From a virus (taxonomy: Monodnaviria > Loebvirae > Hofneiviricota > Faserviricetes > Tubulavirales), in IMG/VR virus record IMGVR_UViG_2703718786_000001, positions 1 to 7,907 of that record: a stretch of DNA of 7,907 bases; one strand, 5' to 3'. Every line of letters starts with the position of its first letter. The stretch's first letter is position 1. The translations under genes were made by a program, and so were the position numbers. Shown here in pieces: positions 2,877-4,874 of the stretch. The notes under the pieces are model-generated. The model did not search any database and was not told where the DNA came from. It saw only the letters and a program-made list of their open reading frames with translations.

Positions 2877-3107
2877 AAATATCGGGTGTAACAGAACTCC
2901 CGAACCGCTGCGCGGTCATTTTCTGGGCAATCTGTAACGGCAGACGACGAATCATCATCATCGTGATCGTCGTCCGTCGTCACGGCAGGCGCTCCCGTCC
3001 TCGACCCTGCGGGCGGGTGCGGCTGGCGTTCCTCCGTCCTCCTTCCCTTTTCTTCTTCTTCAACGTGCTGGCGTCACAGATACGCCAACACACAACAGAA
3101 AACGACA

Positions 3108-3207
3108 CAGTGCGCACAATGGCGTTATGTGTAAAAAGGCCGCTGCGGTGGAGAGTATCGCAGCGGCCTTTTCAACATAAATAACGCGTGTCACATTATG
3201 CGCACTG
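3108..3207. other. Structured element A: long imperfect hairpin with dif-like arms (candidate XerCD attP) and a GC-rich inner stem-loop
   Basis: Outer stem cagtgcgca (3108-3116) pairs with tgcgcactg (3199-3207). Inner perfect 11-bp stem aggccgctgcg/cgcagcggcct (3137-3169) is flanked by A and T runs. Plus-strand left arm AGTGCGCACAA-TGGCG-TTATGTGTAAA (3109-3135) and minus-strand right arm AGTGCGCATAA...TTATGTTGAAA both resemble E. coli dif GGTGCGCATAA-TGTATA-TTATGTTAAAT. Confidence 0.55.
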
Positions 3208-3250
3208 TTATAGCAGTTATCGATAAGACAAAAAGATGCCCCGTTAAAAG

Positions 3251-3346
3251 CAGTGCGTACAAGAGCGTTATGTGTAAATCGGGCGCGGCGATCGCCATTT
3301 TCGCCGCACCCGATTCAACATAACGGCATATACCTTATACGCACTG
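3251..3346. other. Structured element B: second copy of the dif-like forked hairpin
   Basis: Outer stem cagtgcgta (3251-3259) pairs with tacgcactg (3338-3346); the outer-stem changes relative to element A are compensatory (c to t on the left, g to a on the right). Inner 14-bp stem 3278-3291/3301-3314 has one mismatch. Minus-strand arm AGTGCGTATAA-GGTATA-tgccg-TTATGTTGAAT (plus 3313-3345) matches dif at 9/11, 5/6 and 10/11 positions, with a 5-nt insertion. Confidence 0.55.
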
Positions 3347-3614
3347 CAATGAGATGCGGTAAAAACAGACTGAAAGCGACACCGACCCTCACCAGAACGC
3401 TGTAAATCATCAATTCCATCAACATGCCACATCAATGCATGGACGACTCACGCCTTGCGTCGTTCGTCTCGCTGACTGCCCGTTTAAAGGCGGTCTGGCA
3501 GGCGGCGCGTTGCGCTGTCTCCTGCTGCTCTGTCATCTCTCACTGGCTTCGGCGGGCTGACAGCTGCGTCACATGAAACATCATCATGCCGCCTTCCATG
3601 CCGCTGGCGCGGCA

Positions 3615-4874
3615 TCACTTGCCAACCCTGCGAGCCTGAAGCACCACAATAATATCCGTCCGGTTATCCTCGTCTGATTTGCCTGTAAAACCCGGCAAAA
3701 ATGAAAAACCTGTCCGCGATTGCGTCAGCTTACTGCTGGCAAGACCACCAAGCACAAGTAATTCACCGTCCTTAACATCAACCTTTGTGCTGATTTCCCG
3801 CTTCGTCAGCGTCGGACTGGAGTTAACACCCGTCGTTGTCTTCACAAAATCACTCAGTTGCTGGCTGATATCCAGCGTTATCAGTCCGTCAAGCACAACC
3901 GGCGTCACGGTAAAAATCGCCCCGCTGTTTCTGTACGTCACAGACTGAACAGGCGTACCGCTGCTACCCTGATAGCTGACGCTGTCCAGCACCGGAACTT
4001 CCTGACCCACAGTAAACTGCGACTTACTGCCGGAAAGCACCGTCAGGCGCGGATTACTCACGACATTAAAGCGTGAATCCTCTTTAATCAGACTGTAAAA
4101 CGCATTCAGCCCCCCAACGTTCAGCGTAAACGAATTACCCCCATCAAGACGTGCACCCACAGACATCCCCAGTTTATTACGGAACAAATCAGCAATAATC
4201 TGAAGCCCCGTTGCATTACGGTCCGTCGTCTGGACTTCAAGAACATAGCCGCTCACCGTTACCTGCTCAGCCGGAACGTCGATACGCGGCAGTATTTTTT
4301 CTATCTGCCGGACGGACGCAGCCGGACCGGAATAAACCAGCACCTCGGCATCCGTCGCCATCGACATACGCGTCGATGCGCTGTCTGTCGTGGATGTGCC
4401 GGACACACCGCCAGATAAATAATCAACGGACTGGATATGATTACTGAAAGCCCCCGAAGAAACCACAGAGTTAAGCATGGCCGACAAATAACTCACGCTG
4501 CGGTATCGTGGACGATAAGTAAAAACCACATCCGGCACTTTCTGCTCAGTCTGCTTTATCACTGAAATGTAATCCACACCATCCTTCATCGATGTGACGC
4601 TGATATTCAGGCGTTTAAGGTATGAAATAAAAAAGCTTCGCGGCTCCTGATTTTTACTCAGATAGAAGCTGACAAGCCTTGTGTCTCCGGCAATATCCGG
4701 CGACAACTGATAAGGACGATTAAAAACCCGCTGCCAGACCATACTGATAACCTGCGGTAAAGGCGCATTGTCCATTGACATCTCAACACGCCCTGCATCA
4801 TTTTCTGAAACGGCATAAGCCGGAGAAAAGAACGACAAAAGCACAAATGAAAAAAATACGGTGACCAGTTTCAT
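3615..4874 (-). CDS. Secretin (pIV-like outer-membrane export channel), 419 aa
   Basis: ATG at 4874 overlaps the TGA stop of the pI gene (ATGA). N-terminal signal peptide [22 protein letters not shown]-terminal region (..[25 protein letters not shown].., ..LLVLGGL..) is secretin-like. It follows pI as gIV follows gI in Ff. Confidence 0.8.

What the first reader, a model, noticed from the sequence alone, without database searches (positions are those of the whole stretch)
2880..3620. Intergenic region is compositionally distinct (GC-rich) with a long polypyrimidine tract
The region between the regulator and the secretin gene is visibly more GC-rich than the AT-rich coding genome. It contains a pyrimidine run of about 30 nt (tcctccgtcctccttcccttttcttcttcttc, about 3031-3062) and an imperfect inverted repeat around 2937-2990 (gacgacg...cgtcgtc). 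This is the expected location of the replication origins and packaging signal, but the composition also fits a horizontally acquired integration module.
Basis: seen in the sequence. Interest (0 to 1): 0.4.

Follow-up and report, generated by a model that had tools for sequence, protein, structure and literature searches.

The report
Phage attachment hairpins for host dif
The GC-rich gap between genes in this E. coli filamentous phage holds two folded DNA hairpins that mimic the chromosome's dif site, so the phage can use the host's XerC/XerD enzymes to insert itself; one hairpin is a known type and the second, tandem one is unusual.

Summary
The intergenic region (2858-3614) is the GC maximum of a complete circular inovirus genome of about 7.9 kb (54% against 44%). 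The pyrimidine run and the inverted repeat are real. Unit 1 is homologous to the YpfPhi/CUS-1 hairpin and is a CTXphi-type folded attP. In six E. coli prophage arrays of relatives, the junctions show a regenerated perfect dif on one side and the whole hairpin fused at its XerC arm on the other. Covariation supports the fold (95.6% of cells paired, 10 compensatory pairs). Unit 2 is a diverged paralogue found in only 13 of 5,426 complete E. coli genomes. It matches dif on the XerD side of the central region, and two strains carry a hybrid dif crossed over exactly there. The region is a mosaic shared by phages and satellites with four unrelated Rep types, so it is not a plus-strand origin. The GC block with the pyrimidine tract (2930-3107), and a block at 3440-3614 homologous to IncF plasmids, remain unassigned. 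They may be a minus-strand origin or a packaging signal.

The parts
2858..2929 (+). 3' end of the regulator transcription unit: small hairpins (2861-2876 GTGCGGGAAACCGCAC; 2883-2904; 2904-2916 followed by a T run)
   Evidence: Terminator-like site at 2904-2916. The block is 84-100% conserved only in relatives with a related regulator module.
2930..3028 (.).
   Evidence: It is 96-100% identical in E. coli elements L001, L002, L008, L009 and L011 that carry three different Rep types. No reading frame is conserved.
3029..3107 (.). Pyrimidine tract (3030-3061 on the + strand, so purine-rich on the packaged strand) plus a small inverted repeat (3065-3074 and 3082-3091)
   Evidence: 25 nt pure, 33 nt with one G, 0 of 300 shuffles; only a 17-nt core CTTCCCTTTTCTTCTTC is shared with relatives. 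The window's extension comes from 9 clustered substitutions that destroy a 9-nt inverted repeat present in the relatives.
3108..3207 (-). Unit 1: CTXphi/YpfPhi-type folded attP(+) hairpin. On the packaged (-) strand the 5' arm reads XerC arm AGTGCGCATAA (3206-3196), a 15-nt spacer starting TGT (3195-3181; 11 nt in all relatives), then XerD arm TTATGTTGAAA (3180-3170). The apical stem is 3134-3147 with 3159-3172. The 3' arm is the partner site with a 5-nt spacer (3109-3135 on the + strand).
   Evidence: Fold dG -38.7 kcal/mol, z -8.6. Arm identities to dif. Junctions of integrated relatives. Covariation. Homology to the YpfPhi and CUS-1 hairpins.
3208..3250 (.). AT-rich spacer between the two hairpins (43 nt here and in L007/L083; about 85 nt in L002, L006 and EC12)
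3251..3346 (-). Unit 2: paralogous hairpin, 75% identical to unit 1. On the packaged strand it reads XerC arm AGTGCGTATAA (3345-3335), an 11-nt spacer GGTATATGCCG (3334-3324) whose first 6 nt match the dif central region at 5 of 6 positions, then XerD arm TTATGTTGAAT (3323-3313). The apical stem is 3277-3291 with 3301-3315.
   Evidence: (dG -38.0, z -9.35). Compensatory changes against unit 1 and within unit 2 variants. Hybrid dif sites crossed over in this arm in two strains.
3347..3439 (.). Conserved non-coding block G
   Evidence: 83-98% identical in most relatives.
3440..3614 (-). GC-rich (62.9%) conserved non-coding block just after the secretin stop codon, homologous over about 180 nt to a segment of IncF plasmids; candidate complementary-strand priming signal and/or packaging signal
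   Evidence: (alignment with plasmid L003 2390-2571). Frameshifting indels and stop codons between relatives argue against coding. No similarity to the G4 origin.

Best explanation
The intergenic region is a mosaic of cis-acting DNA that depends on host factors, and its core is a XerCD/dif attachment module. In the packaged single strand (the window's - strand), unit 1 (3108-3207) folds into a long hairpin. Its stem imitates a dif site: a XerC-binding arm and a XerD-binding arm separated by an unpaired, asymmetric central region (11-15 nt on one strand, 5 nt on the other). Host XerC cuts the 5' arm just after AGTGCGCATAA and exchanges that one strand with the chromosomal dif, whose central region begins with the same TGT. 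Replication then fixes the insertion. This leaves a perfect dif on one side of the prophage, ready for the next phage and hence for tandem arrays. On the other side it leaves the whole hairpin, now duplex and inert, fused to the chromosome next to hipA. Shown here: the fold, its covariation, the arm identities, the homology to YpfPhi/CUS-1 and the junction sequences of integrated relatives. Inferred: single-strand integration, XerC-only catalysis and replicative resolution, by analogy with CTXphi. Unit 2 (3251-3346) is a second, selectively maintained hairpin with Xer arms. It most likely acts as a second Xer substrate with different specificity (see the novel case). High GC follows from the content: dif-like arms, GC-rich stems and blocks shared with E. 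coli elements and IncF plasmids, set in an AT-rich phage backbone.
For: (1) Genome context: an inovirus with rep, ssb, coat, pIII, pVI-like, Zot and secretin genes all on the - strand and a divergent HTH regulator. It is circular, with a 16-nt terminal repeat. (2) Both units fold strongly as ssDNA (z -8.6 and -9.35) and pair better on the - strand. (3) Arms against E. coli dif: unit 1 XerC 10/11 and XerD 9/11; unit 2 XerC 9/11 and XerD 10/11; spacers are 11-15 nt on the top strand and 5 nt on the bottom strand. This matches the CTXphi attP1/attP2 description of 12-bp and 5-7-bp central regions in inverted orientation. (4) Junctions: in six contexts (S21EC, L007, RIVM_C037166, E300010, EC12, JNE112863) the left end reads ATTTAACATAATATACATTATGCGCAC followed by the DNA that follows unit 1. 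Right ends (S21EC, cM8a, UTI89) keep the entire hairpin fused at the XerC arm to chromosomal caa(t/c)ataaacc beside hipBA. L007 is 97% identical to the window, and its flank is 100% E. coli. (5) Covariation across 18 unit 1, unit 2 and YpfPhi-type hairpins: 95.6% of cells paired and 10 pairs with changes on both sides, against 28-52% and 0-2 pairs when partners are slid. No shuffle of 500 reaches the covariation score. (6) Unit 1 shares its apical stem with the hairpin of Y. pestis YpfPhi and E. coli UTI89 CUS-1. Those phages are listed as CTX-type and are reported to have inverted XerC/XerD sites. (7) Mosaic distribution: the same blocks occur with four Rep types and several structural modules, including 3.6-kb elements that lack morphogenesis genes.
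Against: There is no experiment on this phage. No integrated copy identical to the window was seen; the nearest are 95-98% identical (L006, L007, L083). The window's unit 1 carries a private 4-nt insertion (ATAA, 3181-3184) that lengthens the spacer to 15 nt. It is absent from all relatives, including the closest, so this copy might integrate less well, or the insertion is an assembly error. Junction sequences cannot tell single-strand from double-strand integration. The functions of 2930-3107 and 3347-3614 are not established, so the explanation covers the core of the region rather than all of it.
Confidence: 0.85

Rival explanations
1. The flagged features (GC block, inverted repeat, pyrimidine tract, and the block after the secretin gene) are the phage's minus-strand origin and/or packaging signal, as in the Ff intergenic region, which sits in the same place after gene IV. 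This does not exclude the attachment module. It concerns the parts of the region that the module does not explain.
For: The position after gene IV matches Ff (established knowledge of Ff phages). The blocks are non-coding yet 85-100% conserved. They occur in satellites that lack morphogenesis genes and would need a helper's packaging signal. Block 3440-3614 is present in every element with the window-type structural module and is homologous to an IncF segment about 450-600 bp past oriR, in the strand orientation expected of a leading-strand priming site. That last expectation rests on my recollection of the R1 'G-site', which I could not verify.
Against: Folds of these blocks are barely better than shuffles (z -2.3, -1.4, -0.5). 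There is no similarity to the G4 complementary-strand origin and no Rfam match. The GC block is absent from L006, which has the same structural module. The long pyrimidine tract is lineage-specific.
Confidence: 0.35
2. The region contains the plus-strand (Rep-nicked) origin of rolling-circle replication.
For: In Ff phages the plus-strand origin lies in the large intergenic region (established knowledge).
Against: The conserved blocks are shared by elements whose Rep proteins belong to unrelated families (divergent G2P, canonical G2P/CRI, Rep_trans, P2-GPA-like), and origins are Rep-specific. The window's Rep is 97% identical to that of L010, whose region upstream of unit 1 differs. The only similarity to a characterised phage, If1, lies at 2211-2438, in the rep-regulator control region.
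Confidence: 0.07
3. The hairpins are only transcription terminators or generic ssDNA hairpins, and the resemblance to dif is incidental.
For: The apical stem of unit 1 is GC-rich and flanked by A and T runs on both strands, like a bidirectional terminator. It lies between convergent transcription units (sequence).
Against: The prophage junctions fall exactly at the XerC arm and regenerate dif. The arms are 9-10 of 11 identical to dif in both units. The outer stems, which are not needed for termination, are conserved with compensatory changes. A terminator role for the apical stem may coexist with the attachment role.
Confidence: 0.03
4. The GC-rich block encodes small proteins on the - strand (for example the basic 27-aa or acidic 50-aa ORFs at 2831-3117), and this explains its composition.
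For: The ORFs exist. Between the window and S21EC, two Arg codons change synonymously in one frame.
Against: Every frame is interrupted or changes its C-terminus in one relative or another. The ORFs lack conserved start codons. The substitutions are clustered in a 37-nt patch of an otherwise identical 180-nt block, which is not a codon-like pattern.
Confidence: 0.08

Closest known systems
YpfPhi (Yersinia pestis) and CUS-1 (E. coli O18:K1:H7) filamentous prophages
   Same: They share the gene order (secretin, Zot, DUF2523, pIII ... rep, divergent HTH regulator), integration at dif beside hipBA in tandem arrays, and a homologous single hairpin with the same apical stem AAGGCCGCTGCG...CGCAGCGGCC and the same arm layout. 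YpfPhi is reported to have inverted XerC/XerD sites and to regenerate dif.
   Different: Unit 1 is only about 80% identical to their hairpin. Secretin and Zot are 38-39% identical and Rep about 20%. None of the eight YpfPhi-type loci examined has a second hairpin. They lack the GC block and the 3347-3614 block.
CTXphi attP(+) of Vibrio cholerae (CTX-type IMEX)
   Same: It has two inverted dif-like sites with a long (12 bp) and a short (5-7 bp) central region that pair in the single strand. The site lies between the end of the structural/secretion genes and the divergent repressor. The crossover is next to the XerC arm, with homology limited to the first central bases. Tandem arrays form, and the duplex sites are unusable (compared).
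   Different: The loop between the arms is a 32-36-nt perfect apical stem-loop instead of about 90 nt. The arms match enterobacterial rather than vibrio dif. This phage encodes its own secretin. A second hairpin is present.
TLCphi attP (TLC-type IMEX)
   Same: Read as duplex DNA, unit 2's top arm has a near-consensus XerC arm, a 6-bp central region matching dif at 5 of 6 positions, and then a poor XerD arm (6/11). The review describes the TLCphi site in the same terms, and it recombines by XerD-first exchange. The hybrid dif in two strains is crossed over at the XerD-side border.
   Different: No Xer activation factor (DUF3653/XafT-like) was found in the window. Unit 2 is also a hairpin with a good XerD arm 5 nt further on. 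The resemblance is a lead, not a demonstrated mechanism.
Ff (M13/f1/fd) large intergenic region
   Same: It is a non-coding region after gene IV with hairpins acting in the single strand.
   Different: There is no sequence similarity. Ff does not integrate and has no Xer sites. The plus-strand origin is not supported here.

Membership tests
CTX-type IMEX attachment site (folded attP(+)) | Two dif-like sites in inverted orientation, each with XerC- and XerD-binding arms | tested here: met
   Both units. Top arms match dif at 9-10 of 11 positions and bottom arms at 8-9 of 11.
CTX-type IMEX attachment site (folded attP(+)) | Central regions of unequal, non-functional length in duplex form (about 12 bp and 5-7 bp), so that only the folded single strand gives a usable site | tested here: met
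   Spacers are 15 nt (11 in relatives) and 5 nt for unit 1, and 11 and 5 nt for unit 2.
CTX-type IMEX attachment site (folded attP(+)) | The arms pair in the packaged strand to form a stem with an unpaired central bubble | tested here: met
   ssDNA folds have z -8.6 and -9.35. 95.6% of cells are paired, with 10 compensatory pairs across 18 sequences.
CTX-type IMEX attachment site (folded attP(+)) | Crossover next to the XerC arm, with homology to dif limited to the first central bases; dif regenerated on one side and an inert hybrid on the other | tested here: met
   Met for unit 1: TGT is shared with the dif central region TGTATA. Six left junctions regenerate dif, and three right junctions (S21EC, cM8a, UTI89) keep the whole hairpin. 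Not met for unit 2, whose first central base differs.
CTX-type IMEX attachment site (folded attP(+)) | Integration uses the single-stranded genome, XerC catalysis only, and replication to finish | not testable with these tools
   This needs in vivo or in vitro recombination assays with catalytic mutants.
YpfPhi/CUS-1 hairpin family | Sequence homology of the hairpin, including the apical stem, and position at the prophage end next to hipA/dif | tested here: met
   About 80% identity over 92-99 nt to Y. pestis, Kluyvera, Enterobacter, Phytobacter and other loci, and to UTI89.
TLC-type attP (considered for unit 2) | XerC arm and 6-bp central region close to dif, with a degenerate XerD arm | tested here: inconclusive
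   XerC arm 9/11, central region 5/6, adjoining 11-mer 6/11. However, a good XerD arm lies 5 nt further on and the site is part of a hairpin.
TLC-type attP (considered for unit 2) | An element-encoded Xer activation factor that enables XerD-first exchange | tested here: not met
   No DUF3653/XafT-like domain was found in the window proteins scanned: ten ORFs against Pfam, and the regulator plus two small ORFs against PHROGs. The mini-elements carry an uncharacterised double-HTH protein beside unit 2, which proves nothing.
Ff-type intergenic region (origins and packaging signal) | A Rep-specific plus-strand origin within the region | tested here: not met
   The shared blocks travel with four unrelated Rep types.
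Ff-type intergenic region (origins and packaging signal) | Minus-strand origin and packaging hairpins | tested here: inconclusive
   The blocks are conserved and non-coding, but their folds are weak and there is no functional test.
G4-type single-strand initiation signal (considered for 3440-3614) | Sequence or structure similarity to the phage G4 complementary-strand origin | tested here: not met
   Local alignment scores against G4 3861-4025 are at or below the shuffle means for both the window and the IncF segment.

The most novel reading that the evidence does not exclude
The phage carries two Xer substrates with complementary specificity. Unit 1 is tuned for XerC-side exchange with canonical dif, giving the classical irreversible CTX-type insertion. 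Unit 2 is tuned for exchange at the XerD side of the central region. Its first 6 central bases match dif at all positions except the XerC-proximal one. The hybrid sites AGTGCGTATAA-GATATA-TTATGTTAAAT in strains cM8a and 700481 are exactly the product of such an exchange. Unit 2 would then either rewrite the host dif into a site that only unit-2-bearing elements match (a second key that makes its own lock, which would explain the long mini-element arrays in those strains), or provide a duplex site that lets tandem copies be excised. Either role would be a way around the irreversibility of CTX-type integration.
Probability: 0.25. Interest if true: 0.75.

Novelty: new variant of a known kind. Interest (0 to 1): 0.5.

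Why it matters
Filamentous phages that hijack XerCD at dif carry virulence traits; CTXphi carries cholera toxin, and YpfPhi and CUS-1 contribute to fitness during infection. The folded single-strand attachment site has been dissected experimentally almost only in Vibrio. This window shows the same device in an undescribed E. coli phage lineage. The attachment module moves as a cassette among phages and satellite-like mini-elements with unrelated replication genes, and about one in six complete E. coli genomes carries a hairpin of this family. The tandem second hairpin is rare, is kept under selection for pairing, and is linked to altered dif sites. It offers a concrete, testable case of an element carrying two Xer substrates, which bears on how irreversible integrations are escaped and how arrays at dif are ordered.

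Tried and rejected
(1) G4-type primase origin for 3440-3614: I fetched phage G4 and aligned its origin. The scores were no better than shuffles, so the label is dropped, although the IncF homology itself is real. (2) Known RNA families: only one sub-threshold chance hit. (3) Coding potential of the GC block and of 3424-3618: rejected because of stops and frameshifts between relatives. (4) My first reading, that unit 2 is simply a second CTX-type attP used in nature, was weakened. The cM8a array ends in unit 1 on the right, no 'unit 2, spacer, unit 2' junction exists, and the crossover is not where a XerC exchange with canonical dif would put it. (5) A first exact-pattern scan of species-representative genomes found nothing. 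The broader pattern also returned chance hits in AT-rich MAGs and an unrelated multi-copy repeat. (6) The thousands of plasmid hits are not integrated phages. They are the IncF segment and truncated CUS-type hairpins beside an IS200C remnant. (7) The 2002 CUS-1 paper could not be read. (8) A Xer activation factor was looked for and not found.
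Full report
WHAT THE WINDOW IS. The 7,907-base window is a complete filamentous-phage (inovirus) genome. A G2P-type replication protein, an ssDNA-binding protein, a coat protein, a pIII-sized ORF, a DUF2523 (pVI-like) protein, a Zot/pI ATPase and a pIV secretin all lie on the - strand. One HTH regulator lies on the + strand. The first 16 bases repeat at the end, which is the signature of a circular assembly, so the true length is about 7,891 nt. In filamentous phages the genes have the sense of the packaged strand (established knowledge), so the packaged strand is the window's - strand. 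No phage record resembles it at the DNA level, and its secretin is at most 41% identical to any phage record. E. coli chromosomes, however, hold prophages about 90% identical over roughly half the genome. Two viral contigs and one metagenomic contig are 95-98% identical over the structural half.

CHECK OF THE OBSERVATION. The flagged stretch has 54.3% GC against 43.6% for the genome and 38.3% for the replication half. Only 0.8% of equal-sized windows reach that value. High GC is not limited to the intergenic region. It runs on into the secretin gene (51.9% for 3615-4500), and a second peak lies in the pIII gene. The pyrimidine run is 25 nt pure (3037-3061), or 33 nt with one G, and no shuffle out of 300 matches it. 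The inverted repeat has 17-nt arms at 2934-2950 and 2967-2983. All three observations are confirmed.

Between 3108 and 3346 lie two similar units, 75% identical and 143 nt apart. Each folds as single-stranded DNA into a hairpin of about 100 nt (dG about -38 kcal/mol, z -8.6 and -9.35), and pairing is better on the - strand. Read on that strand, the 5' arm of unit 1 is AGTGCGCATAA, then a spacer beginning TGT, then TTATGTTGAAA. These arms match the XerC and XerD arms of E. coli dif (GGTGCGCATAA-TGTATA-TTATGTTAAAT) at 10/11 and 9/11 positions. The spacer is 15 nt here and 11 nt in all relatives, and the partner arm has a 5-nt spacer. Unit 2 has the same layout: XerC arm 9/11, 11-nt spacer, XerD arm 10/11, and 5 nt on the partner arm. 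This is the anatomy described for the CTXphi attachment site, which has two inverted sites with 12-bp and 5-7-bp central regions. Neither works as duplex DNA; they pair in the single strand to give a site on which XerC exchanges one strand with dif, and replication completes the insertion.

EVIDENCE THAT UNIT 1 IS THE ATTACHMENT SITE. Relatives are integrated at the E. coli dif locus, between the ydeQ/fim-like cluster and hipBA, usually in tandem. In S21EC the left end of the array reads ATTTAACATAA-TATACA-TTATGCGCAC, a perfect dif, followed by the DNA that follows unit 1. The junction between the two copies is the intact intergenic region. The right end keeps the whole hairpin up to CATTATGCGCAC, joined to chromosomal DNA. 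The same left junction is seen in five further contexts. One is L007, which is 97% identical to the window and has a flank 100% identical to E. coli. The same right junction is seen in cM8a and in the CUS-1 prophage of UTI89. So the crossover lies at the XerC arm of the - strand 5' arm, where unit 1 and dif share TGT. That matches the CTX-type rule that specificity rests on the bases next to the XerC site. An alignment of 18 hairpins (unit 1 variants, unit 2 variants, YpfPhi-type) fits a 39-pair model. 95.6% of cells are paired and 10 pairs are changed on both sides, against 28-52% and 0-2 when partners are slid; no shuffle of 500 reaches the covariation score.

RELATION TO KNOWN PHAGES. A pattern scan of species-representative genomes found single hairpins with the same apical stem in Y. 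pestis (YpfPhi), Kluyvera, Enterobacter, Phytobacter, Lelliottia, Erwinia tracheiphila and Rosenbergiella. UTI89 shows the same hairpin at the end of CUS-1. YpfPhi and CUS-1 are listed as CTX-type, and YpfPhi is reported to carry inverted XerC/XerD sites and to regenerate dif. Unit 1 is therefore a new member of a known kind. The phage itself is only distantly related to these: secretin and Zot are 38-39% identical and Rep about 20%. The paper on UPphi phages of Enterobacterales describes dif integration but mentions neither attP nor hairpins.

UNIT 2. A hairpin of this family occurs in 893 of 5,426 complete E. coli genomes, but the double module occurs in only 13. It is carried by at least four backbones: the window type, L006, the EC12 type, the L010 type and 3.6-kb mini-elements. 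None of the eight YpfPhi-type loci has it, and I found no description of tandem hairpins in the papers searched. Unit 2 is not a decaying relic. Six stem pairs differ from unit 1 on both sides, and within unit 2 variants a T:A pair in the XerC arm is replaced by C:G in L010. Its match to dif complements that of unit 1: the first central base, next to the XerC site, differs, but the next five are identical to dif. In strains cM8a and 700481, the only two of 5,426 genomes with this junction, the left end of the array is ATTTAACATAA-TATATC-TTATACGCAC followed by the DNA that follows unit 2. That is the chromosomal XerD arm joined to unit 2's six central bases and XerC arm. A XerC exchange with canonical dif would have kept dif's central region, so this crossover lies at the XerD-side border. 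The cM8a array ends in unit 1 on the right and has no 'unit 2, spacer, unit 2' junction. So the hybrid site arose by a separate event. It could have been an exchange between the regenerated dif and unit 2's arm, Xer-mediated or by microhomology. Once formed, the hybrid site matches unit 2 (GAT) and not unit 1 (TGT). As duplex DNA, unit 2's arm resembles the TLCphi type of site (good XerC arm and central region, poor adjoining XerD arm). No Xer activation factor was found in the window. The function of unit 2 is therefore inferred, not shown.

THE REST OF THE REGION. Bases 2858-2929 carry small hairpins, including a terminator-like one, at the end of the regulator gene. No reading frame survives comparison. 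The window's long pyrimidine run results from nine substitutions clustered in 37 nt, and these destroy a 9-nt inverted repeat (CGTCGTCAC...GTGACGACG) present in the relatives. Only a 17-nt core of the tract is shared. In other elements a 57-aa ORF is inserted between this block and unit 1, or the block is absent. Bases 3347-3614 are conserved in most elements, with frameshifting indels. About 180 nt (3440-3614) are homologous to a segment of several thousand IncF plasmids lying roughly 450-600 bp beyond oriR, on the strand that would be the leading-strand template. From memory, plasmid R1 has a primase site in that position, but I could not verify this, and the segment shows no similarity to the G4 origin. 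These blocks accompany four unrelated Rep types, so they cannot be Rep-specific plus-strand origins. A host-dependent minus-strand origin or a packaging signal is plausible, especially for 3347-3614, which is present in every element with the window-type structural genes and in satellites. The predicted folds are weak and nothing was tested.

VERDICT. The composition signal is real, and a horizontally exchanged cassette of host-dependent cis-acting DNA explains it. The core of that cassette is a CTXphi/YpfPhi-type folded attachment site for XerCD integration at dif. The 'replication origin' reading is not supported for the plus strand and is untested for the minus strand and for packaging. Unit 1 is a new member of a known kind. 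The tandem, diverged unit 2, linked to XerD-side crossovers, is a variant I did not find described and is worth an experiment.

Noticed in passing
window 1-16 and 7892-7907: A 16-nt terminal direct repeat (GAAAATCACGGTCAGC) shows that the window is a circularly assembled complete genome of about 7,891 nt, not a prophage fragment.
   Followed up: yes
window 3181-3184: Unit 1 carries a 4-nt insertion (ATAA duplication) absent from every relative, including the 96-98% identical contig L083. It is either a private variant that lengthens the attP spacer to 15 nt or an assembly error.
   Followed up: partly
window 1316-2857: The 411-aa rep ORF and the 181-aa regulator ORF overlap by 240 nt on opposite strands. 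A strong promoter-like site (TTGACA-18-TATAGT, 2512 to 2483 on the - strand) and the position of the HTH (residues 95-177) suggest both genes start later than the longest ORFs. Window 2211-2438 is the only DNA similar to a characterised phage (If1 minor intergenic region, 68%).
   Followed up: no
window 1316-2551 versus L010 7386-8513: The window's Rep is 97% identical to that of a prophage in E. coli JNE112863 that has a different structural module, whereas the window's structural half is 95-97% identical to contigs with a different (P2-GPA-like) replication module (L006). This indicates module swapping between dif-resident phages.
   Followed up: partly
L008 6030-18991 with L080 1-1640; L002 6940-13900; L084 24400-38500: Arrays of four or more copies of a 3.6-kb mini-element (G2P Rep, ssb, an 87-aa protein, a 201-aa double-HTH protein, no morphogenesis genes) sit at dif in three E. 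coli strains. They look like satellites of the full-length phages, comparable to RS1 or TLCphi in Vibrio.
   Followed up: partly
L008 6030-6062; L002 6941-6968: In strains cM8a and 700481 the only dif-like site at the array's left end is a hybrid (AGTGCGTATAA-GATATA-TTATGTTAAAT) with an altered XerC arm and central region. These chromosomes presumably resolve dimers at this altered site.
   Followed up: partly
L003 2390-2571 (IncF plasmid) versus window 3440-3614: Several thousand IncF plasmids of E. coli, Klebsiella, Shigella and Salmonella share a homologous segment of about 180 nt downstream of the RepA/oriR region. It is annotated at most as a hypothetical protein.
   Followed up: partly
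L081 2500-2570; L005 3001-3062: About 480 plasmid places in E. coli, and some Klebsiella plasmids, carry a truncated CUS-1/YpfPhi-type hairpin (5' arm plus apical stem) beside an IS200C transposase remnant. These are apparent fossils of an attachment hairpin on plasmids.
   Followed up: partly
L004 5567-7120: An IncF plasmid carries a decayed element with a hairpin fused at CATTATGTGTAC to plasmid DNA, diverged copies of the intergenic blocks and a pyrimidine-rich GC block. This may be an insertion at a plasmid Xer site.
   Followed up: no
L031, L022, L028/L050, L035, L040 and others: A multi-copy repeat in Photorhabdus, Xenorhabdus, Erwinia, Pantoea, Rosenbergiella and Escherichia ruysiae starts GGCGCAGTGCGTATAAT, then 9-10 nt, then TTATGTTGAAT, followed by a long GC-rich hairpin and ATTTACCCCCGC. 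It shares arm sequences with unit 2 but folds differently, has several copies per genome and matches no Rfam family.
   Followed up: partly
L010 9211-9384; L004 6849-7022; L006 about 4205-4365; L008 about 9335-9440: In several relatives a small ORF of about 57 aa, hydrophobic and with no family match, is inserted just upstream of unit 1, where the window has only the end of the GC block.
   Followed up: no
window 6500-6900: A second GC peak (57%, strongly T-rich over A on the + strand) lies inside the pIII gene, with internal repeats (6610-6658 and 6730-6778). It is 77% similar to an unannotated 'Caudovirales sp.' record. It is probably a glycine-rich linker region.
   Followed up: no
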